In this document: piece after piece, positions 50,509 to 63,111 of the stretch | Numbering within the stretch: position 1 is the stretch's first letter | How the letters are laid out: the number at the start of each line of letters is the position of its first letter | Origin: a virus | Virus record (IMG/VR): IMGVR_UViG_3300047558_000137 | Span: 246,859 to 310,858 of that record | Strand: one strand, 5' to 3' | DNA: 64,000 bases | Notes under the pieces: generated by a model | Told to the model about the DNA's origin: nothing | The model's database searches: none | What the model saw: the letters and a program-made list of their open reading frames with translations, nothing else | Made by a program: the position numbers and the translations under genes

Positions 50509-51135
50509 TTATGTAAGGGTTGTTAATACATATGGCCAACATAAAGGGCCGGGTTTCGTAACAGGACCGGTCAATCGTTGATGTGCTGTATACCAACTTT
50601 TATGTATTAATTTTGCATCATCAAAGTTTATATTGAAGTTACCATAATGGCATATCTGAGAATAAAGTAATTCATCTAGATCTTCAGTGTATAAATCTGC
50701 TGTATCAAGTAAAAGTCCAGAGCAATTGCCTACATATAATTCTGCTTGTTGACGTTCATACCGCACTGTATTGAAGTATAAGTTTCGATCTACATGTGTG
50801 AATTTTTTATATAAGTCTAATGTCACCAGTGGATCTGTTGGATATAAGAAATAGTTAACATTGCTATCAAATTGCCCTGGTCTATTTTCCCACCCCGGGT
50901 CAAAATTGGTATGAGCAAATTTAATCTGTTCATTTAAGACCTGTCTATACTTAAACTCATAACTAAACCAATTTTTACAGTTACGCTCTGCAGGATAAAC
51001 ATTTGACAGTATATAGTCAACTTTATCCGCAACAGGGCCACGATCAAAAAGAAGAAAACCGGGGTCGAGTAGTAGCAACCACCTTAAATGATTACCACAC
51101 CCGCCCCGGCAACTATGCACAATAGCACGATGCAT
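50509..51135 (-). CDS. hypothetical protein
   Basis: 208-aa ORF, stop/start overlap with phosphoesterase. Confidence 0.45.
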   Translation of the reverse strand: MHRAIVHSCRGGCGNHLRWLLLLDPGFLLFDRGPVADKVDYILSNVYPAERNCKNWFSYEFKYRQVLNEQIKFAHTNFDPGWENRPGQFDSNVNYFLYPTDPLVTLDLYKKFTHVDRNLYFNTVRYERQQAELYVGNCSGLLLDTADLYTEDLDELLYSQICHYGNFNINFDDAKLIHKSWYTAHQRLTGPVTKPGPLCWPYVLTTLT

Positions 51136-51740
51136 TACATTGTAGGCCCATTGCCATTACGCATACCAACTGTACCACCTTCTGCTGTAATGCGCTTGAT
51201 GACATCTTCAAACAGGATGGGAGCGAAGTCCGGGGTCTGTTCTACACACACGCAGTGGTAGCGGACATCGTTCTCATTACTGTACAAGACTTCACCGGTT
51301 TTGACATTATATCCACGCATCTTCTTTACACGATTAGTATGCAAGTGTCCGTGAATGTTCGTGCCAAAGCGGCCCAACGAAGCTTCGTGTACCGGAATAT
51401 GACTAAGAATCATTCCGTTCATTACATGGTATGCACGTAGTTCACGAAAGTATTCACGATATTCTTCATCACGAAAGATATCATGGTTGCCACGGATCAA
51501 GACTTTATCACCGTTTAGGCGGGCAAGCGTTTTCAAAGCCCGTCTATTGATAACAACATCGCCTAGGTGATAGACTTTGTCGTTGGGCCTTACACGGTCA
51601 TTCCAGGCCTTGACCATGGCTTCATCCATTTCATCCGGATCTGTCCACGGACGTATTTTTGTAACACCGTCCGCTTCAGTAAAGCGACATACACCGGCAT
51701 GGCCAAAGTGCGTATCGCTAACTAAGAATACTGCTGGCAT
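51135..51740 (-). CDS. calcineurin-like metallophosphoesterase
   Basis: DTHFGH, GDVV, GNHD, ...GHLH motifs in canonical order. Confidence 0.8.
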   Translation of the reverse strand: MPAVFLVSDTHFGHAGVCRFTEADGVTKIRPWTDPDEMDEAMVKAWNDRVRPNDKVYHLGDVVINRRALKTLARLNGDKVLIRGNHDIFRDEEYREYFRELRAYHVMNGMILSHIPVHEASLGRFGTNIHGHLHTNRVKKMRGYNVKTGEVLYSNENDVRYHCVCVEQTPDFAPILFEDVIKRITAEGGTVGMRNGNGPTM

Positions 51741-52081: not shown

Positions 52082-52157
<76 letters not shown>

Positions 52158-52161
52158 CATA

Positions 52162-52238
52162 TTGGTTGCAGAGGCTGGATTCGAACCAGCGGCCTCCAGG
52201 TTATGAGCCTAGCGGGATGACCAACTTCCCTACCCTGC
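52162..52238 (-). tRNA. tRNA-Met(CAT), initiator-like (C1 opposite A72)
   Basis: CGCAGGG...CTAGG-CTCATAA-CCTGG...GCTGGTTCGAATCCAGC-CTCTGCA-A-CCA; unpaired 1:72 is the bacterial initiator hallmark. Confidence 0.75.
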
Positions 52239-52882: not shown

Positions 52883-53108
52883 AATACATTAGCGGTTAGA
52901 CATTTTTAGGCGCCTAAATTACTAAAGCAAAATACAAGAGACAGAGGATACCAATATTCGTGAGTGTCAACAAACAAGGCAATTACGCCGGGGTCTCACA
53001 TCACTGGATCACGATTGTTAATGCAATATTTCCGTTCAAGGGAATATTACGGTGCAATCTCTCATCTCCATACACATCACCGTCCTGTTTTAATAAACAG
53101 GCAAAATC

Positions 53109-53291
53109 TTAACAATGTTCTTTAAACAACGCCTTGCGCTTTTCTTGGCCCAATGTGTTATCTAAAACATCTTTGCATCTATTCATCATACCAAAACATA
53201 AAATCAATAACTCATTCTGGTCATCGCACATCATAATCTGCTGTTCGATGGGTTGCATAAGTTCTTTTAATTTTTGATCAATAGGATGCAT
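53109..53291 (-). CDS. small hypothetical protein (track ORF 53109-53366 runs into tRNA-Cys; shortened to internal Met)
   Basis: MHPIDQKLKELMQPIEQQIMMCDDQNELLILCFGMMNRCKDVLDNTLGQEKRKALFKEHC. Confidence 0.3.
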   Translation of the reverse strand: MHPIDQKLKELMQPIEQQIMMCDDQNELLILCFGMMNRCKDVLDNTLGQEKRKALFKEHC

Positions 53292-53296
53292 AAACT

Positions 53297-53372
53297 TGGA
53301 GCACGGTGTAGGAGTTGAACCTACCTCATACCGGGTTTGCAATCCAGCGCATAACCGCTCTGCCAACCGTGC
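53297..53372 (-). tRNA. tRNA-Cys(GCA)
   Basis: GCACGGT...D-loop AGCGGTTA identical to E. coli tRNA-Cys, loop TTGCAAA, T-arm GTAGG-TTCAACT-CCTAC, CCA encoded. Confidence 0.75.
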
Positions 53373-53504
53373 ATAATTCTTTGTTTAGTGGGCTACCCCT
53401 CATGTTCTCTTACTCTTGGGTAACGTGACCAGATCGCATAGCACCGAAGAACAATCCGTACTATACTAGGCTCCCTCGCTAAAGGCATCACTAAACAAAA
53501 ACTT

Positions 53505-53596
53505 ATATGTAAACACACTACCACGGCGTTATACTGCTGTATCGCAAGCAATACTACCATGTCTACCCATTGTGCATGTAATGTGTTTGCATATAA
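53505..53596 (-). repeat. copy A of about 90-nt conserved hairpin element (arms ATGTAAACACACT / AATGTGTTTGCATAT)
   Basis: Second copy at 56129-56207 abuts the 3' end of tRNA-Lys; arms are inverted repeats of each other, inner region partly conserved (AATACTACC / AGTATTGCTACC). Confidence 0.55.
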
Positions 53597-53597
53597 G

Positions 53598-53670
53598 TGG
53601 AGGACTGAGATTACATCTCTCCCAATAGCACCTCGAGCATTATACTGCACCTTGCGAGCACAGCTTCTCT
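53598..53670 (-). pseudogene. degenerate tRNA-like remnant (3' end CTCAGTCCTCCA resembles tRNA-Lys 3' end) attached to repeat copy A
   Basis: No canonical T-loop; same junction with the hairpin element as the intact tRNA-Lys copy. Confidence 0.25.
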
Positions 53671-53928
53671 CGACATCCACGGTAACCCTTGCGGTATTAC
53701 TGTCTGCTATCAGCATCGCCGTTTTTAACGTCAGGCAGTAGACGTGTCGCTATCAGCTACTCTGTACCTTATTTCCCGTTGACCTTTAGAGCCATTCACA
53801 GTCGCTAAACTGTTACGAAACTTCTAGTACAAACCAATTTCACCTTGCGAGTTACGTTGGACTTGATTCACTTGCGTGTCAAGCATTAGATGCTTTTCAC
53901 TGATAACCGTGTCAGACTTTGCGTTTTT

Positions 53929-54000
53929 CGATGTTAGCTGGGATCGAACCAGCAGTCTATTTCTTAGAAGGAAATCGGCCTACCATTAGCCTATAACAAC
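53929..54000 (-). tRNA. tRNA-Arg(TCT), no encoded CCA, one acceptor mismatch
   Basis: GTTGTTA-TA-GGCTAATGGTAGGCC-G-ATTTC-CTTCTAA-GAAAT...GCTGGTTCGATCCCAGC-TAACATC. Confidence 0.6.
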
Positions 54001-54735
54001 CTACTATGATGAGCTGACACAGTTGATCCATACACTTTTGGTATACAGAATACAACTCACCACGTACCTTTCCTCTCGCGGAGTAATCAGTCGTTTTTTG
54101 CGATCAATGTCTACGCTAACACGTAACCACCAACCACTCAAACTGCACTACAACCCTTAGGAGCGACCCCTCGGATCATAACGCTACCCTTTCTCATACT
54201 AACTGACAAGTTGGTTTTGCTGTGAAGTCGGCACCACCCGTTACTTTCCACACACCCGAGTTCCCTTTGATGCGATCTCTGGCTCGACGATATGCGTTCT
54301 TCCCACAGCACTTGCTTCATTGTTACATCCACCGGTCTTATCAGTGAACGCTACCTCACGGTAGTGAGCAGGCTTGCTTAAATGAACTATTGCTAGCGGA
54401 GTTGCGTAGGCTTACCTCCTTTGGCTGTGTCACCACAGTTATTCTTTGTCTAGCCGGGCGAACCGACTCTACAGGACATTAAGCTGCCCTTAAATTCTTA
54501 TACAACTGCACACTCACAGGAATTGAACCTGTCTACCTGGCGACCATTTGTTCATCCAGGCTGCAATCCGCTACATCTGCGTGGCCTACGCATTTGTGTG
54601 CATGTGTATAAGAACTTCTTATACTTTAACTTTTTAAAGAACATTTTCGTCAGTTATTGCTAACTGTCTAAGTATCTATTGTTACATAAAAAACATTTAT
54701 TGTCAACTGTTTTTTAGATAAAAATAAAAATATTT

Positions 54736-54810
54736 TGGTCCGGCGTGCAGGAATCGAACCCACATTCGCGAGGTAGAAGCTCGCTGTATTATCCATTATA
54801 CTAACGCCAG
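54736..54810 (-). tRNA. tRNA-Arg(TCT), second copy; paralogous to tRNA-Arg(ACG) at 58222
   Basis: CTGGCGT-TA-GTATAATGGATAATAC-A-GCGAG-CTTCTAC-CTCGC...GTGGGTTCGATTCCTGC-ACGCCGG-A-CCA. Confidence 0.75.
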
Positions 54811-54830
54811 TTAGATATAAGTATTATACT

Positions 54831-55385
54831 ATGAGTCACCTTTATAGCCAAGAATTAAAAACATGGAACGAGCATCTTTTTCAAAGTGACTACGGCTGGG
54901 GCAACAATCAAACGTACCTCTTTCCACTTAATGCCGATACCATACTAAAAGATAACGACATTATAAAGCTAATTAAACCAAAATCAATATTAGATTATGG
55001 TTGCGGTAATGGTTTAGTATTACAAAATATTTGTCAAACTTTCCCTCATATACACGCTGTTGGCTATGACCCTTTTGTAGGAAAATACGCAGAATTTCCA
55101 CAAGGTGAGTTTGATCTAGTGTTGTCCTACCATGCAATTAACAACGTTGAGTATGACTACTGGGACGAGACCATCTCTAAGTTACAACAACTCTGCAAGT
55201 CTAATGCATTTTTTAAAGTAGTCCTAACTGGCCGATATCCAGAAAGAACCTTTAGCTGGTACAATGACGAATTTAGCAAATATTTTAAGATACGGCGTAG
55301 TTTCCATGACACTATTCCAACTACACGAAGCTCGGTGTTTGAAAACAAGACGGTGTTCTTTGGAACATTTTGGCTTACTAGATAG
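54831..55385 (+). CDS. class I SAM-dependent methyltransferase
   Basis: ILDYGCGNGLVLQNI motif I, acidic motif II GYDPF; only plus-strand gene inside the tRNA island. Confidence 0.65.
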   Translation: MSHLYSQELKTWNEHLFQSDYGWGNNQTYLFPLNADTILKDNDIIKLIKPKSILDYGCGNGLVLQNICQTFPHIHAVGYDPFVGKYAEFPQGEFDLVLSYHAINNVEYDYWDETISKLQQLCKSNAFFKVVLTGRYPERTFSWYNDEFSKYFKIRRSFHDTIPTTRSSVFENKTVFFGTFWLTR

Positions 55386-55468
55386 TGGTACCCCCGGTCA
55401 GATTCGAACTGACATATTATACTCCTCTGTTTGAGAGAGGCGACTTTACCAAATTTGTCCACAGGGGC
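55386..55468 (-). tRNA. tRNA-Leu(CAA), class II long variable arm
   Basis: GCCCCTG...CCTCT-CTCAAAC-AGAGG plus 12-nt variable arm, GTCAGTTCGAATCTGAC, CCA encoded. Confidence 0.75.
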
Positions 55469-55474
55469 ATTTAT

Positions 55475-55550
55475 TGGTGGCAAGGACTGGGGTCGAACCA
55501 GTGACACACGGATTTTCAATCCGCTGCTCTACCAACTGAGCTACATTGCC
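55475..55550 (-). tRNA. tRNA-Phe(GAA)
   Basis: GGCAATG-TA-GCTCAGTTGGTAGAGC-A-GCGGA-TTGAAAA-TCCGT...ACTGGTTCGACCCCAGT; CCA encoded. Confidence 0.8.
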
Positions 55551-55752
55551 ATATAGAAGCACTCTCAAATGCAGGCCTAGGAGGAGTCAAGCTCTGAAAC
55601 CGTTGCGTATGCATCCACTTGGGTCTCATCTCCCGCTTTGTCTTACGCCAAGAATACTTCTATATGAGCTCCACCGTTAACTGACGCTTGTCCTAGCTTT
55701 ATTTTGTGTCGGTTAATGCACGGTGGACACACATGCCGACAGATTTTTATGC

Positions 55753-55833
55753 GAACTCATTGTAGGCAGGACTCGAACCTGCAAGCGGCGACGGCTAGTC
55801 CCCGATGTCTACCAATTTCATCACTACGAGTTC
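55753..55833 (-). pseudogene. tRNA-like sequence with canonical T-arm (GCAGGTTCGAGTCCTGC) but non-canonical acceptor/anticodon geometry
   Basis: Could be a degenerate or interrupted tRNA; not foldable by hand into a standard cloverleaf. Confidence 0.3.
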
Positions 55834-56128
55834 CTGGAGTTAATTACTCCCCAGTATGGATGTTACCTGCAGATAACATTAACCATATAAAAGACAACTA
55901 CGAATATTGTGTTGCTAGCCCGGCGTTGGTCGCGAAAACCCTTTCCTTGCTACTTGGCACAATAGACTTCCAAACTACTTAGGCGCCGGCCGACGTTTTA
56001 TTTCGTAAGTTAATTGTCTTTTATATGGCGGTACATGAGTTAACCTAAAGCTAGTCTAATATCGTGGCCACAATATTTCGTCTATGTCTTAGGATATACA
56101 CGTTGGTACCTTGCGTACCTCACGCACC

Positions 56129-56207
56129 ATATGTAAACACACTGACTCTCCAGTATTGCTACCTTCACCGAGTTTGACGTCTTAGGTCGTGCAATGTGTT
56201 TGCATAT
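56129..56207 (-). repeat. copy B of the about 90-nt hairpin element, immediately 3' of tRNA-Lys(TTT)
   Basis: ATGTAAACACACT ... AATGTGTTTGCATAT, same arms as copy A. Confidence 0.55.
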
Positions 56208-56282
56208 GGTAGGACTGCCCGGACTCGAACCGGGAATTGACGGATTAAAAGTCCGCTGTGATAACCATTTCACTACAATCCC
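56207..56282 (-). tRNA. tRNA-Lys(TTT)
   Basis: GGGATTG-TA-GTGAAATGGTTATCAC-A-GCGGA-CTTTTAA-TCCGT...CCCGGTTCGAGTCCGGG; CCA encoded. Confidence 0.8.
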
Positions 56283-56286
56283 ATAT

Positions 56287-56361
56287 TGGTCCCTAACGAA
56301 GGATTCGAACCTTCAACTCGAGGATTAAGAGTCCTGTACGTTACCATTACGCCAGTTAGGG
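56287..56361 (-). tRNA. tRNA-Lys(CTT) (tentative anticodon)
   Basis: CCCTAAC-TG-GCGTAATGGTAACGT-A-CAGGA-CTCTTAA-TCCTC...GAAGGTTCGAATCCTTC-GTTAGGG-A-CCA. Confidence 0.65.
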
Positions 56362-56454
56362 TTAGTGTATTACGTTTTGTTTAACGTGCTAACCCAGACC
56401 AATACGGGATCTGAGTCAACACTAACGTTTACCACGTTTCATGTTGTTCTCCTG

Positions 56455-57078
56455 TTACATGTTTTTAAATTGAATTGTTCGCCAAGACTCAGGGTCTGGC
56501 TGCTCGTTTTCATCGTATGTCCAACCTAGTGCTTTCATCATCTTGTGCTTAACACGCAAGTTAGGAATACGAGTCTTTTCAGTGTCCTGAAAGCCCATCA
56601 TAATCCCAACTTCCGCTACTGCACCACTACGACACAAGCCAGCCATACAGTGTACTACAACACCCATTTTATTGTCAAGTGCATGTTGCAAGAGTCGCAC
56701 AATTTCTTGTGCTTGCTCATCGCTAATTTTACACTCTTCTGGGAAGTTATCCCGATCCTCAACATCCAGAAACTCAAACCTATGTGTTTCTTTAAATTTG
56801 TGTACTGGTGTGGGCCACCAGCTGGTAGCTGTATCCATGATTTGGATAAGCATACTATTCTCCCCGCAGTCATGATGAAAGCGAGCGGGAATATCGGCAG
56901 CAGCCACATTTTCGATAAAAGGCATCATACATCCTTCATTACTTGATAGAGAACAAACATTATAACACATACCAGAATTAGTACACTCATTGATGTTCTC
57001 CTTTTTGTTGGTGCCCCAGGTCGGACTCGAACCGACACGCCTCACAGCAATGGTTTCTAAGACCATCGTGGCTACCAT
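56455..57078 (-). CDS. dual-specificity (Cys-based) protein/RNA phosphatase
   Basis: Active-site VVHCMAGLCRSGAV (HCx5R P-loop) with upstream Asp; 207 aa. Confidence 0.75.
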   Translation of the reverse strand: MVATMVLETIAVRRVGSSPTWGTNKKENINECTNSGMCYNVCSLSSNEGCMMPFIENVAAADIPARFHHDCGENSMLIQIMDTATSWWPTPVHKFKETHRFEFLDVEDRDNFPEECKISDEQAQEIVRLLQHALDNKMGVVVHCMAGLCRSGAVAEVGIMMGFQDTEKTRIPNLRVKHKMMKALGWTYDENEQPDPESWRTIQFKNM

Positions 57079-57092
57079 TACACCACCGGGGC
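57009..57092 (-). tRNA. tRNA-Leu(TAG), class II
   Basis: GCCCCGG...ATGGT-CTTAGAA-ACCAT plus long variable arm, GTCGGTTCGAGTCCGAC, CCA encoded. Confidence 0.75.
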
Positions 57093-57106
57093 AGATAAAT
57101 ACTTAC

Positions 57107-57661
57107 ATGAAATTCTCTGAAATTATACAAGAAGCCCGTAACCCAGAATGGGAATACGAAGACTTTGAAAACAAAGTGATCCTACGTTTAGAAGGGTACG
57201 ATAGTCAATTTGTGACTAAACTTGCTAAATCTTTCCAAGACGTTGCTGAAGCAAAAGAAAAACTAGCTGCTCTTGAAGAAATTCATAAGCAACAGATACG
57301 TGATCTACACGAATTGTTTGATGCTGCTGATGCGCTTAAAACTCGAGAAATTGAAACAAAGAGTCTTGTTGTACAAATTAGTAAAGACCCAGCTCCTACT
57401 AAAACTCCAAAGTATAAAGAAATCTTAACTCAAATCATGACACACATGAATCCTGAGTTATTAGCAATGACTAAAAGTTTAATTGAAACTATTGTAACTG
57501 TTGTACAAAAGCCCGCGGGCGTAAAAGTTAAACCACTCGATGAGAGTACAATGAATGCCCTACTTGCATTTGCACATCAAGTAAAAGCCAAAGTACTTAA
57601 CTGGGCTAATAGTTACGATCAGAAGTTGTTAATGTTAAAAAACGCGATAGCGCGAGCTTAA
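57107..57661 (+). CDS. hypothetical coiled-coil protein (track ORF 56990-57661 trimmed to Met after the tRNA)
   Basis: MKFSEIIQEARNPEWEYEDFENKVILRLEGYD... Confidence 0.4.
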   Translation: MKFSEIIQEARNPEWEYEDFENKVILRLEGYDSQFVTKLAKSFQDVAEAKEKLAALEEIHKQQIRDLHELFDAADALKTREIETKSLVVQISKDPAPTKTPKYKEILTQIMTHMNPELLAMTKSLIETIVTVVQKPAGVKVKPLDESTMNALLAFAHQVKAKVLNWANSYDQKLLMLKNAIARA

Positions 57662-59900: not shown

Positions 59901-60287
59901 TTAACGTTTTAACCCTCTGGCTGTTCTTCCTTTGCCTTTATTTTTAGCAACAAACGTATCTGTTTGACTATGACAATTAGGACATAACAGTCTTAAATTC
60001 TTTGGCTTATCATTTCCTGCATTACCATCTATGTGATCTAATTGTAACACAAGAGGTCTATTTTTGTGAGTCCCAGTGTTGCCACACTCAATGCATTTAT
60101 ACCCATGAAGATGTGTTAAACATCTTATAAGAGTTCTTCTAGTAGAAATTTCTCCCTTTAAAAACTTTGGTAATGTTTCTGTTTTAAACTGAAATTGTTG
60201 TTGGCAAGTATTATTGCAAAACTTATTTGTGTGATTTCGTTTTACTATATTCTCTTTGCCGCAGCATAAACAATTGAAATTATTCAT
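59901..60287 (-). CDS. HNH endonuclease (homing-endonuclease-like), paralog 1
   Basis: N-terminal Cys-rich zinc finger (CLCCGKE...CNNTCQ), C-terminal LQLDHIDGNAGNDKPKNLRLLCPNCHSQT HNH motif. Confidence 0.75.
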   Translation of the reverse strand: MNNFNCLCCGKENIVKRNHTNKFCNNTCQQQFQFKTETLPKFLKGEISTRRTLIRCLTHLHGYKCIECGNTGTHKNRPLVLQLDHIDGNAGNDKPKNLRLLCPNCHSQTDTFVAKNKGKGRTARGLKR

Positions 60288-60827: not shown

Positions 60828-61214
60828 CTAATACCACGGAAGTCCTCTGCTGCCTCTTCCGTTACCTTTATTTTTTGCTTTATGTGTTGGAGTTTTAGCA
60901 TGACAATTAGGACACAATAGCCGCAAATTTTTGGGCCGGTTATCTCCTGCATTGCCATCAATGTGATCTAACTCAAGTGGTATAGGCTCACCTAGCCACT
61001 CAGTGTTATCACAACACATGCATTTCCATCCATGGATATCAACCATATGGGCTTTCATCCATCCACGGTTTACCATCTTACCATCTAAGAAATTTTGTCG
61101 CCTATCTTTCTTTTGCCCTTCTTTAGAACAAGATACACTACAATATGTCCCAGTGGAACTTCCTATTTTAAACTTAAATTCGGTATTACAATTTTTACAA
61201 GTTGCTATTGCCAT
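60828..61214 (-). CDS. HNH endonuclease, paralog 2
   Basis: ATCKNCNTEFKF...CSVSC zinc finger plus LELDHIDGNAGDNRPKNLRLLCPNCHAKT; about 45 percent identical to paralog 1 in the HNH core. Confidence 0.75.
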   Translation of the reverse strand: MAIATCKNCNTEFKFKIGSSTGTYCSVSCSKEGQKKDRRQNFLDGKMVNRGWMKAHMVDIHGWKCMCCDNTEWLGEPIPLELDHIDGNAGDNRPKNLRLLCPNCHAKTPTHKAKNKGNGRGSRGLPWY

Positions 61215-61423
61215 GGTACGATCTCCGTCTACTTGTATTTATGCTCGTACCGCATTTTTAATTGCCAATAAATACTGTATGGAAAAGATTATCAACGAAA
61301 TGCGACAACTCTACGAATATGCCAAAGGCGAATATCGCCGAGGTCCCACGCACGTTTGTACAAATGAATATACTAATACATTTCCAAAAAAACTACCGCC
61401 TGCAATTGATCTAGACAAAACAC

Positions 61424-61663
61424 TTGTTAAGTCTGAGTTTATTACAGATGGATTACCACCGCAATACCATGGCAAACAAACGCACACTAGAGTTGATCGA
61501 AACATATATAGACCAACTCGCTAAACAGCGAACGTTTAACACACGCAGTGAATACCTAGCGTGGCGTAGTGGTGTCCTTGCAGGTTTAATTGCAACGATT
61601 GCAGATCAAGATTCCCTAATACGATCTGCACTAATATCAATAGTACGACGATCTATTAAGTAA
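61424..61663 (+). CDS. small hypothetical protein(s) on plus strand (alternative overlapping frame 61282-61524 also open)
   Basis: Two mutually overlapping plus-strand ORFs between HNH gene and tRNA-Gln; which one is real cannot be decided from sequence alone. Confidence 0.25.
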   Translation: MLSLSLLQMDYHRNTMANKRTLELIETYIDQLAKQRTFNTRSEYLAWRSGVLAGLIATIADQDSLIRSALISIVRRSIK

Positions 61664-62724: not shown

Positions 62725-63111
62725 TTATCTAACTGCTTTTGCTCTAGCTGTGACCATATCATCGATGTTGCCTTTAATAACAACATTGGTGTAAGTATCG
62801 ACTAGACCGCTAGCATGATCAGTAACCCTATTGTCAGGTTCGTGATACGTTCTAATACGTTCCTCGCCTGCTTGATAGCGTTCTGTATCTTTATGGAAAT
62901 GCGCTTGTACCCTACTAAGGCATGTTATATACGCATTTCGTTTATTGTCTTCACGACTCCTACTGCTAGTACCATTGGCTTTTATTCCAGTGGGTACGTG
63001 AATGCAACGACAACAGTTTTGATGTTTGTTACGGTGCTGACCTCCTTTACCGGTGCCAGAATACCATTCATATATAAATTGTTCTTCCGTAACTTTCATA
63101 ACTGCTTCCAT
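62725..63111 (-). CDS. peptidyl-tRNA hydrolase domain protein (RF-1 family GGQ; ArfB/PrfH-like ribosome rescue or release factor fragment)
   Basis: [26 protein letters not shown] = GGQ loop as in [42 protein letters not shown] = release-factor IRTYNFPQGRVTDHRI block; 128 aa, no codon-recognition domains. Confidence 0.8.
   Translation of the reverse strand: [128 protein letters not shown]

What the first reader, a model, noticed from the sequence alone, without database searches (positions are those of the whole stretch)
53505..53596. About 90-nt conserved hairpin element present twice (second copy 56129-56207), each time fused to the 3' end of a tRNA or tRNA remnant
Both copies start, in minus sense, right after a ...CAGTCCT(A/C)CCA tRNA 3' end with ATATGCAAACACATT. 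They end with AGTGTGTTTACAT, the inverted complement, so the unit folds into a long-range stem enclosing about 60 nt with partly conserved inner sequence. Copy B follows an intact tRNA-Lys(TTT); copy A follows a decayed tRNA-like sequence, implying duplication of a tRNA-plus-element unit. The element may be a processing site, a terminator, or a small tRNA-linked ncRNA.
Basis: seen in the sequence. Interest (0 to 1): 0.6.

Follow-up and report, generated by a model that had tools for sequence, protein, structure and literature searches.

The report
Conserved spacer hairpins in phage tRNA array
The two copies are real and belong to a large, apparently undescribed family of long-stem RNA hairpins that sit between tRNA genes and a giant GOLLD RNA in uncultured jumbo phages, with a conserved stem and a freely exchanged loop.

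Summary
Both copies exist as described. The arms ATATGCAAACACATT / AGTGTGTTTACATAT are exact in each and occur nowhere else in the window. The stems are longer than reported (21 and 20 bp).

The inner 60 and 49 nt are unrelated. The sequence upstream of copy A is not a decayed tRNA but the 3' end of a GOLLD RNA (Rfam RF02032, 191.7 bits) with tRNA-Arg embedded.

The hairpin is widespread in uncultured, mostly large, phage contigs and absent from 50,697 GenBank phage records. Sampling by context alone, 82 of 113 tRNA-Lys(UUU) 3' ends and 42 of 66 GOLLD 3' ends are followed at once by a hairpin, almost all of this family. The stem starts on the NCCA tail of the upstream RNA and often ends at +1 of the next tRNA.

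The stem covaries (13 of 19 pairs). It keeps a core duplex AAACACAUU/AGUGUGUUU and an A·C opposition at stem position 9. Loops are swapped: L091 and L117 share a 98-100% identical 420-nt block except for the loop.

Best reading: an RNA-level punctuation or processing hairpin whose stem is the functional part. The cleaving or binding factor is unknown. No Rfam family or paper matches it.

The parts
53501..53598 (-). Copy A, whole hairpin with a 21-bp stem. 5' arm 53594-53580 (ATATGCAAACACATT). Loop 53579-53520 (60 nt). 3' arm 53519-53505 (AGTGTGTTTACATAT). Outer pairs ACTT (53598-53595) with AAGT (53504-53501).
56125..56211 (-). Copy B, whole hairpin with a 20-bp stem. 5' arm 56207-56193. Loop 56192-56144 (49 nt). 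3' arm 56143-56129. Outer pairs TACC (56211-56208, the discriminator and CC of tRNA-Lys) with GGTG (56128-56125).
53602..54063 (-). GOLLD RNA, conserved 3' domain (Rfam RF02032), with tRNA-Arg(UCU) 53929-54000 embedded in its linker. It ends ..GAUGUAAUCUCAGUCC followed by UCCA, and copy A follows 3 nt later.
   Evidence: 191.7 bits, gathering score 150, E 3.9e-53; the same arrangement in 7 loci
56207..56282 (-). tRNA-Lys(UUU). Its 3' ACCA forms the bottom of copy B's stem.
56026..56128 (-). 103-nt cloverleaf-like RNA that starts right after copy B and ends in GCCA, followed at once by the next hairpin. It has an 8-9-bp terminal stem.
   Evidence: conserved in L088 and L143, with compensatory changes read from the listed sequences; -31.2 kcal/mol, z -2.63
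55882..56029 (-). Diverged member of the same hairpin family. Arms GCCATATAAAAGACAATTA / TAGTTGTCTTTTATATGGT, 19 bp, 110-nt loop.
   Evidence: I8; an L141 homologue has compensated arms
55549..55667 (-). Diverged member. Arms TCATATAGAAGTATTCTTGG / TTGAGAGTGCTTCTATATGG, 20 bp, 79-nt loop. It ends at the first base of tRNA-Phe.
   Evidence: I21; the same arms occur in L133 and L143
53372..53507 (-). Long-stem hairpin (19 bp, 98-nt loop) that fills the space between copy A and tRNA-Cys (53297-53372).
   Evidence: I11; L147 homologue

Best explanation
The two copies belong to one large family of RNA hairpins that punctuate the polycistronic tRNA / GOLLD / tRNA-like transcripts of a clade of uncultured jumbo phages.

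Shown:
- The functional part is the stem. It is about 19-23 bp long.
- Its bottom pairs involve the NCCA tail of the upstream RNA and the first nucleotides after the hairpin.
- It carries a conserved core duplex, 5'-AAACACAUU / AGUGUGUUU-3'.
- It carries an A.C opposition at position 9 from the base.
- The loop (29-121 nt) is not conserved and is exchanged between copies and between phages.

Inferred mechanism: the stem is a recognition and cleavage module.
- On its 3' side, RNase P (when a tRNA or tRNA-like RNA follows) or another endonuclease cuts after ..ACAUAU.
- On its 5' side, a cut or trimming leaves the upstream RNA ending in CCA.
- This releases mature tRNA-Lys(UUU) or GOLLD, plus a discrete and probably stable stem-loop RNA of about 80-130 nt.
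- The length of the helix fits a double-strand-specific nuclease of the RNase III type. The conserved core sequence and the conserved mismatch suggest a more specific, still unidentified factor.
- Because many copies share the same arms, the arms also act as short homologies at which loops and neighbouring RNA genes are shuffled.
For: Structure:
- 65 elements collected with the canonical arms are 94.6% paired against 87.5% in shuffles. There are 111 double-change cells against 38.8 expected (0/500 shuffles reach this). The three pairs outside the arms switch CG<->UA, and there are 14 G.U against 1 A.C.
- A set chosen only by the tRNA-Lys 3' end gives 13 of 19 pairs with changes on both sides, against 4.6 expected (0/500).

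Position:
- 82 of 113 tRNA-Lys(UUU)-type 3' ends are followed at once by a hairpin of at least 16/19 pairs that includes the ACCA.
- 42 of 66 GOLLD 3' ends are followed by such a hairpin, and 39 of 66 carry NCCA.
- In a census of 199 long stems, 48 overlap a tRNA 3' end by 1-7 nt, with a peak at 3-4 nt.
- 10 canonical copies are followed within 1-7 nt by a tRNA (6 of them at +1).
- In the window the RNAs and hairpins abut without gaps from 56442 to 53297.

Sequence constraint:
- The 3' core AGUGUGUUU is kept in 35/51 distinct arm pairs and the 5' core in 21/51. 5'-arm C->U changes give G.U pairs.
- An A.C or C.A opposition is found at position 9 in 37/51.

Loops are exchangeable:
- L091 and L117 are 98-100% identical over about 420 nt, except for unrelated loops of 51 and 58 nt.
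- 7 pairs have the same upstream sequence with a different loop and downstream sequence. 3 pairs have the same loop with different flanks on both sides, including window copy A and L078.

Other points:
- It is not a terminator.
- All 27 tRNAs and the GOLLD RNA are on the same strand.
- Loops are GC-richer than the genome (48.6% against 41.3%) and weakly structured (mean z -0.56).
Against: - No cleavage or transcript data exist; every processing step is inferred.
- No RNase III or other candidate nuclease was found among the ORFs tested in the window. Only 64 kb of a genome that may be several hundred kb (the element-bearing contigs reach about 365 kb) is in hand.
- General RNase III enzymes do not need a specific 9-bp sequence, so conservation of the core is not explained by that enzyme alone.
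- The bottom pairs compete with the acceptor stem of a downstream tRNA.
- G.U against A.C asymmetry over all stems is only 375:232. The conserved A.C would be a G.U on the other strand, so strand assignment rests mainly on gene orientation and on the flank pairs.
- The first collections were made with exact arms, which inflates apparent arm identity.
- In the second set the 3' partner was chosen for best pairing, which favours paired cells.
Confidence: 0.5

Rival explanations
1. Trans-acting small RNAs on a constant scaffold. The conserved stem is a handle for a protein (as the Ro-binding stem is for Y RNAs), or for processing and stability. The variable loops are the effectors: decoys, sponges, aptamers or guides. 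They are released from the tRNA transcript by tRNA-processing enzymes, as in the tRNA-linked pre-miRNA hairpins of murine gammaherpesvirus 68.
For: - The core sequence and the A.C mismatch are conserved beyond what pairing needs.
- Individual loop types are kept at 90-100% identity in different contexts.
- Loops are GC-rich, slightly structured, and more so on the sense strand.
- Loops never shrink below about 28 nt.
- Some loops carry T-arm-like 16-19-mers identical to real tRNA T arms.
Against: - No feature is shared by all loops; there are about 38 similarity groups among 63 loops.
- No antisense target was found in the window or in the fetched loci.
- There is no Rfam hit, including YrlA, at the elements.
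- No partner protein was identified.
- Structure z-scores are weak.
Confidence: 0.2
2. DNA-level element. The inverted arms are sites for recombination or transposition (MITE-like, attC-like or PeSL-like), and the RNA fold is incidental.
For: - Loops and flanking modules are shuffled exactly at the arms.
- The arms are nearly palindromic, with TA/ATAT at both ends.
- HNH endonuclease genes lie in the tRNA array.
- The tRNA arrays are mosaic.
Against: - The bases outside the arms are complementary rather than direct repeats, and they covary with G.U tolerated on the sense strand.
- Copies do not share their interior, as MITE copies do.
- The loop is linked to neither the upstream nor the downstream gene, unlike an attC site.
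- No GTTRRRY-type core is evident in the arm sequences.
- Positions are precise with respect to RNA 3' and 5' ends.
- The arms are conserved at orthologous positions across diverged tRNA-Lys genes.
- No promoter accompanies the stem, unlike PeSLs.
Confidence: 0.15
3. Transcription-level signal. The hairpin is either an intrinsic terminator or attenuator, or a nut/put-like element that modifies RNA polymerase for read-through of the long untranslated array.
For: - The 3' arm is GU-rich (from memory, this resembles boxC of nut sites).
- The array is long and untranslated.
- An RpoZ-like ORF is common near the arrays (identification by eye only).
Against: - There is no U tract and no terminator-like match on the minus strand.
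- Genes follow immediately after the hairpin.
- Nothing resembling boxA or boxB was noticed by eye; no search was run.
- The variable loop and the many copies per array are not typical of such elements.
Confidence: 0.05

Closest known systems
RNase III processing stems: phage T7 early-region sites, rRNA operon stems, and 23S rRNA intervening sequences (IVS; PMC4990558)
   Same: - A long helix formed by inverted sequences that flank or separate mature RNAs in a polycistronic transcript.
- Repeated within one genome, with family resemblance between the copies.
- The interior is variable and sporadically exchanged, as in IVSs.
- It is excised without religation.
   Different: - Cleavage has not been shown here.
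- The stem base is built on the CCA tail of a tRNA or GOLLD RNA.
- A specific 9-bp core and an A.C mismatch are conserved across many phages, which RNase III substrates do not require.
tRNA-linked hairpins of murine gammaherpesvirus 68 (TMERs; from my own knowledge; PMC3482243 covers non-canonical miRNAs in the same virus)
   Same: A hairpin is fused directly to the 3' end of a viral tRNA-like gene, so tRNA-processing enzymes can release it.
   Different: TMERs are eukaryotic, transcribed by RNA polymerase III, and processed by tRNase Z and Dicer. Here the tRNA is a real one with an encoded CCA, the host is bacterial, and the loop is 29-121 nt.
PeSL cassettes of T4-type phages (PMC2839356, PMC4122927)
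   Same: Short conserved stem-loop motifs repeated between genes, which serve as the boundaries of modular shuffling.
   Different: PeSLs combine an early promoter with a terminator-like stem and flank protein genes. Here there is no promoter or terminator, the elements flank RNA genes, and it is the loop itself that is exchanged.
Y RNAs / YrlA
   Same: A conserved terminal stem formed by the 5' and 3' ends, a variable interior that sometimes carries tRNA-like modules, and occurrence in phages.
   Different: There is no Rfam YrlA match at the elements, the stem sequence is different, and no Ro/Rsr gene was looked for or found.
GOLLD RNA (RF02032; PMC12286853, PMC5737381)
   Same: Copy A is physically attached to a GOLLD RNA, and the hairpin is found after most GOLLD RNAs of this clade. 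GOLLD is known to lie in tRNA islands and to carry tRNAs in its linker.
   Different: The hairpin lies outside the Rfam model, which ends at 53602. It also occurs after tRNAs with no GOLLD nearby.

Membership tests
tRNA or tRNA remnant (upstream of copy A) | Cloverleaf detected by ARAGORN or by the Rfam tRNA model | tested here: not met
   No tRNA call between 53373 and 53928. The stretch is the 3' end of GOLLD.
GOLLD RNA (upstream of copy A) | Covariance-model score above the Rfam gathering threshold over the full model | tested here: met
   191.7 bits against 150, model positions 1-416 of 416, at 53602-54063.
GOLLD RNA (the hairpin as part of it) | Hairpin lies inside the family model | tested here: not met
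   The model ends at 53602 and the hairpin stem begins at 53598.
GOLLD RNA | Assembly into a 14-mer cage | not testable with these tools
   Cage assembly was shown by cryo-EM for another member (PMC12286853).
Intrinsic terminator | GC-rich short stem followed by a U tract | tested here: not met
   No minus-strand terminator-like site in 53000-57200. The arms are 27% GC, and ACATATGGT / ACATATAAGT follows the stem.
RNase III processing site | About two turns of mostly uninterrupted double helix between mature RNAs | tested here: met
   Stems of 20-21 bp, each with a single C.A opposition that the search tolerated, flush with tRNA-Lys or GOLLD and with the next RNA.
RNase III processing site | Staggered cleavage in the helix by RNase III | not testable with these tools
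   Needs an enzyme assay or RNA end mapping.
MITE / transposon | Copies share their interior; direct target-site duplication | tested here: not met
   The interiors are unrelated. The flanks are complementary and covary; they are not direct repeats. A TA on both sides is part of the palindrome, so it is uninformative.
Integron attC site | Hairpin linked to the upstream cassette gene | tested here: not met
   The same upstream tRNA-Lys occurs with different loops, and the same loop occurs with different flanks.
Integron attC site | R''/R' cores (RYYYAAC / GTTRRRY) | not tested
   No dedicated motif search was run. From the arm sequences as read, ATATGCAAACACATT / AGTGTGTTTACATAT carry no such core.
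Integron attC site | Integrase nearby | not tested
   No integrase was seen among the 20 window ORFs scanned against Pfam. No dedicated search was made.
Y RNA / YrlA | Match to the Rfam model | tested here: not met
   The only weak YrlA hit (23 bits against 69) lies on tRNAs at 52130-52198.
Y RNA / YrlA | Adjacent Ro/Rsr gene | not tested
   No search for a Ro/Rsr gene was made.
CRISPR / TIGR-type arrays | Tandem direct repeats with spacers of uniform size | tested here: not met
   The arms are inverted, not direct. The copies are 2.6 kb apart with genes between them, and loops range from 29 to 121 nt.
PeSL shuffling cassette | Early promoter joined to a stem-loop | tested here: not met
   No promoter-like site at either copy.
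PeSL shuffling cassette | Boundaries of exchanged modules | tested here: met
   Breakpoints fall at the arms.

The most novel reading that the evidence does not exclude
The core duplex AAACACAUU/AGUGUGUUU with its A.C mismatch is the handle of a dedicated, still unknown factor. The loops are a recombining library of small-RNA payloads. This would be a natural scaffold that co-expresses dozens of different small RNAs with tRNA-Lys(UUU) and with the GOLLD cage RNA, possibly as cargo or tethers for the cage, or as decoys against host defences that attack tRNA-Lys.
Probability: 0.15. Interest if true: 0.85.

Novelty: new variant of a known kind. Interest (0 to 1): 0.6.

Why it matters
- GOLLD is one of the largest bacterial and phage non-coding RNAs and its function is unknown. 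This family shows that, in a large phage clade, GOLLD ends in an NCCA tail and is followed by the same conserved hairpin that follows tRNA-Lys(UUU). That points to GOLLD being matured like a tRNA, and it gives a defined 3' boundary to test.
- The hairpin is a clean case of a conserved stem with a swappable loop. That pattern implies a specific recognition factor, and it explains how the RNA-gene arrays of jumbo phages become mosaic.
- The hairpin also flags a dense set of unannotated structured RNAs around it.

Tried and rejected
- Megablast of the 3.1-kb region against GenBank phages found only tRNA fragments.
- Blastn of copy B at E up to 10 found no element in 50,697 phage records.
- The first collection scan used one 15-mer and returned mostly chance hits. 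About 26 of 119 loci were real.
- A scan of one genome per bacterial species gave one hit, a 3.9-kb tRNA-only contig in a Polynucleobacter MAG that is probably phage DNA.
- Guide hypothesis: a short-query blast of all loops against the window and the loci found no antisense targets, only copies of the same loops and tRNA T-arm words.
- Partner protein: clustering ORFs from 46 element-bearing loci gave a DSP-type phosphatase, an unknown 211-aa protein, a small RpoZ-like ORF and a metallophosphatase as the most frequent neighbours, but no nuclease.
- Pfam on 20 window ORFs found no RNase III, RNA ligase or recombinase.
- Literature searches by topic and by the arm sequences themselves found nothing on this motif.
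- One Pfam call failed because of wrong coordinates.
- Not used: structure prediction, large protein searches and the metagenome scan. No candidate protein justified them.

Full report
**1. Setting**

The window from about 51.8 to 63.2 kb is a phage tRNA array. ARAGORN finds 27 tRNAs, all on the minus strand, and the Rfam tRNA model confirms 26 of them. The rest of the window encodes phage proteins: a DnaB-like helicase, a UvsW-like helicase, a GroEL-type chaperonin and fibre proteins with Mtd_N domains. The UvsW-like protein is about 50% identical to those of the jumbo phages Phosso, Atu_ph07 and PA5oct. No GenBank phage is close at the DNA level.

**2. The observation**

On the minus strand, ATATGCAAACACATT and AGTGTGTTTACATAT occur exactly at the stated places in both copies and nowhere else in the window. 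They pair 14/15, with one U.G and one C.A opposition.

- Copy A has 21 bp (53598-53501) around a 56-nt unpaired loop.
- Copy B has 20 bp (56211-56125) around a 47-nt unpaired loop.
- The interiors between the arms are 60 nt (A) and 49 nt (B).
- Predicted energies are -29.6 kcal/mol (z -2.9) and -19.0 kcal/mol (z -1.55).

The two interiors are not related. Their alignment score equals that of shuffled sequences (z 0.12).

Copy B starts on the CCA of tRNA-Lys(UUU). Copy A does not follow a tRNA remnant. Rfam places a full-length match to GOLLD at 53602-54063 (191.7 bits, gathering score 150, E 3.9e-53), with tRNA-Arg(UCU) embedded in it. The 'tRNA-like' end is GOLLD's last hairpin followed by UCCA. 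tRNAs in the GOLLD linker and GOLLD's location in tRNA islands are known (PMC12286853, PMC5737381).

**3. The element elsewhere**

- A scan of IMG/VR for both arms (gap 30-60) found 53 contigs, up to 354 kb long.
- With the first scan, I collected 65 sense-strand elements in 44 loci plus the window. They carry 63 different loops of 29-99 nt, falling into about 38 similarity groups.
- 29 of the 65 sit exactly after tRNA-Lys(UUU), which itself follows tRNA-Lys(CUU).
- About ten follow a GOLLD 3' end.
- Others follow CCA-ending tRNA-like RNAs.
- Ten are followed within 1-7 nt by a tRNA (Met, His, Glu, Lys or Ile), six of them at +1.
- Rfam confirmed GOLLD with an embedded tRNA in 7 loci and recognised nothing at the hairpins.
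- The element is absent from 50,697 GenBank phage records at E up to 10.
- Among one genome for each of 185,579 bacterial and archaeal species, it occurs only on a 3.9-kb, tRNA-only contig of a Polynucleobacter MAG.

**4. Removing the ascertainment bias**

Those collections required exact arms, so I sampled again by context alone.
- Of 113 distinct contexts ending in a tRNA-Lys(UUU)-type 3' end, 82 are followed at once by a hairpin with at least 16/19 pairs that includes the ACCA. 76 of these belong to one family (51 distinct arm pairs).
- The commonest 5' arm in that set is AUAUAAAAACACAUU. The window's AUAUGCAAACACAUU is second.
- Of 66 distinct contexts ending in the GOLLD 3' motif, 42 are followed within 12 nt by such a hairpin, nearly all with the same core. 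39 carry NCCA right after the motif.
- A census of stems of at least 17 bp in 440 kb of element-bearing loci found 199, about one per 2.2 kb. Of these, 69 have the canonical core and many others are graded variants.
- The window itself has at least three further members or relatives, at 55882-56029, 55549-55667 and 53372-53507.

**5. The stem is selected; its sequence is partly constrained**

- In the arm-selected set, the three pairs outside the arms are 90-98% paired and switch between CG and UA, with 14 G.U against 1 A.C. The first pair inside is paired in 85%.
- In the context-selected set, 13 of 19 pairs show changes on both sides against 4.6 in shuffles (0/500). The slid controls collapse to 27-59% pairing.
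- One caveat applies to that set: the 3' partner was picked for best pairing.
- The core is nevertheless conserved. AGUGUGUUU is kept in 35/51 distinct arm pairs and AAACACAUU in 21/51. The 5'-arm C->U changes give G.U pairs.
- Position 9 from the base is an A.C or C.A opposition in 37/51.
- Over all stems, G.U exceeds A.C by 375:232. This is modest support for folding on the tRNA-sense strand. The main argument is that all RNA genes are on that strand.

**6. The loops are exchanged**

- L091 and L117 share a block of about 420 nt that is 98-100% identical. It runs leader, tRNA-Lys(CUU), tRNA-Lys(UUU), hairpin, tRNA-Met. The exception is the loop, which is 51 nt in one and 58 nt in the other, and unrelated. 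Outside the block there is no similarity.
- Seven further pairs share the upstream tRNA-Lys but not the loop or the downstream sequence.
- Three pairs share the loop but neither flank. One of these pairs is window copy A, which follows GOLLD, and L078, where the same loop follows another RNA and precedes tRNA-Met.
- Arms can change by compensation while the loop stays identical. Example: L142 has TTGAAACACATT/AGTGTGTTTCAA and L065 has TTGAAGCACATT/AGTGTGCTTCAA.
- Loops are GC-richer than the genome (48.6% against 41.3%) and weakly but significantly structured (mean z -0.56, p 3e-6), more so on the sense strand (p 0.02).
- Loops have no antisense matches in the data held. Some contain 16-19-mers identical to real tRNA T arms.

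**7. Interpretation**

- The hairpins fill the spaces between mature RNAs exactly. From the leader at 56442 to tRNA-Cys at 53297, RNA genes and hairpins abut each other. The single interruption is a plus-strand methyltransferase gene.
- There is no U tract, and no terminator or promoter match at either copy.
- The most economical reading is a cis-acting RNA punctuation or processing module. The stem marks the CCA end of the upstream RNA and the 5' end of the downstream one, and its excision yields a discrete stem-loop RNA.
- The closest precedents are the repeated RNase III sites of phage T7 and the rRNA processing stems and intervening sequences (PMC4990558).
- The conserved core and mismatch go beyond what a general double-strand nuclease needs. 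They point to an unidentified specific factor.
- A trans-acting role of the excised RNA is compatible with the data and is not excluded.
- A purely DNA-level element is less likely. The flanks are complementary and covarying rather than duplicated, copies do not share interiors, and the loop is linked to neither neighbour.
- The shuffling at the arms resembles what PeSL motifs do in T4-type phages (PMC2839356, PMC4122927).
- No protein partner was found.

**8. Novelty**

No Rfam family matches at E up to 1. No paper in the library holds the arm sequences or describes such a motif. I rate it a new variant of a known kind: an inter-RNA processing stem with an unusual combination of conserved core, CCA-anchored base and exchangeable loop, linked to GOLLD.

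Noticed in passing
window 56442-56277 (-); also L007, L020, L055, L082, L091, L094, L114, L117, L128, L131, L132, L134, L138, L143 and others: - A conserved mini-ORF with a Shine-Dalgarno site (AGGAG at 56453-56449) reads ATG AAA CGT GGT AAA CGT TAG = MKRGKR* at 56442-56422.
- About 10 nt later comes a 16-nt leader arm, GATCCCGTATTGGTCT (56411-56396).
- This arm pairs with GGACCAATATGGGATT (56292-56277), which is the 3' end of tRNA-Lys(CUU), the ATAT spacer and the 5' end of tRNA-Lys(UUU).
- The same ORF (MKRSGKR, MKRAKR, MKRKSRKL ...; two Lys codons plus Arg codons; synonymous changes) sits at the same distance in more than 20 loci. The leader/junction helix covaries between loci.
- It looks like a leader-peptide sensor carrying Lys codons in front of tRNA-Lys genes.
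   Followed up: partly
window 53602-54063 (-), probably extending to about 54700: A GOLLD RNA with tRNA-Arg(UCU) embedded. A promoter-like TTGACA-17-AACAAT lies at 54706-54678. The 640 nt between that site and the Rfam match are non-coding and full of GNRA-type hairpins, and are probably the variable 5' domain. In this clade GOLLD ends in NCCA in 39 of 66 contexts.
   Followed up: partly
window 54492-54617 (-): A 22-bp stem (AAGTTCTTATACACATGCACAC / GTGTGCAGTTGTATAAGAATTT) encloses an 82-nt tRNA-like sequence. That sequence has a 7-bp acceptor-like stem (TGCACAC/GTGTGCA) and a T-arm-like AGGTTCAATTCCT. Neither ARAGORN nor Rfam calls it a tRNA. L055 has a possible relative: a 22-bp stem (74-nt loop) with similar arms.
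   Followed up: no
window 56026-56128 (-); L088 6391-6493; L143 11798-11900: A 103-nt four-arm RNA with an 8-9-bp terminal stem and a GCCA 3' end lies between two hairpins. It is conserved in two other contigs, with compensatory changes in the terminal stem and in an internal hairpin (UGUGG/CCACG against UGCGG/CCGCG). Its folding z-score is -2.63 and it has no Rfam match.
   Followed up: partly
window 55758-55830 (-): ARAGORN calls a tRNA-Ala(AGC) here, but the Rfam tRNA model does not, even at E up to 1. It is probably a tRNA-like or degenerate gene. A similar 3' end precedes a hairpin in L055.
   Followed up: no
window 59901-60287 and 60828-61214 (-), repeats 59914-60041 / 60844-60971: Two paralogous 128-aa ORFs lie inside the tRNA array: the first has a Pfam HNH-endonuclease match, the second carries the same HNH motif by eye (not scanned). 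About 79% identical DNA repeats cover their 3' parts.
   Followed up: no
window 62725-63111, 56455-57078, 51135-51740 (-), 54831-55385 (+): - Protein genes are interleaved with the tRNAs: an RF-1-domain (ArfB-like, GGQ) protein, a DSP-type phosphatase directly upstream of the Lys leader, a metallophosphatase, and a SAM methyltransferase on the opposite strand.
- The phosphatase is conserved next to the array in 15 loci.
- An ORF of about 77 aa that looks RpoZ-like by eye recurs in 14 loci, but not in the part of the window examined.
   Followed up: no
L154 (CAYYOB010000099.1, 3945 bp): This contig, binned as uncultured Polynucleobacter, is the only hit among the bacterial species genomes. It consists almost entirely of tRNA genes plus the hairpin. 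It is probably phage DNA in the bin, and possibly a hint about the host.
   Followed up: no
L088 7391-7487, L091 2545-2644, L131 12579-12675, and several contexts: A second, unrelated hairpin family also follows tRNA 3' ends. Its arms are of the type (A)AACTTCTTTGGTGTGGC / GTCACCCCAAAGAAGTTT, or ACCAGTTTTCTTTGGTGTG / CACCCCAAAGAAAATTG.
   Followed up: no
window 61344-61491 (-): A 19-bp stem with a 110-nt loop (TCTAGTGTGCGTTTGTTTG / TGTACAAACGTGCGTGGGA) lies between tRNA-Gln and an HNH gene. It is not of the canonical family.
   Followed up: no
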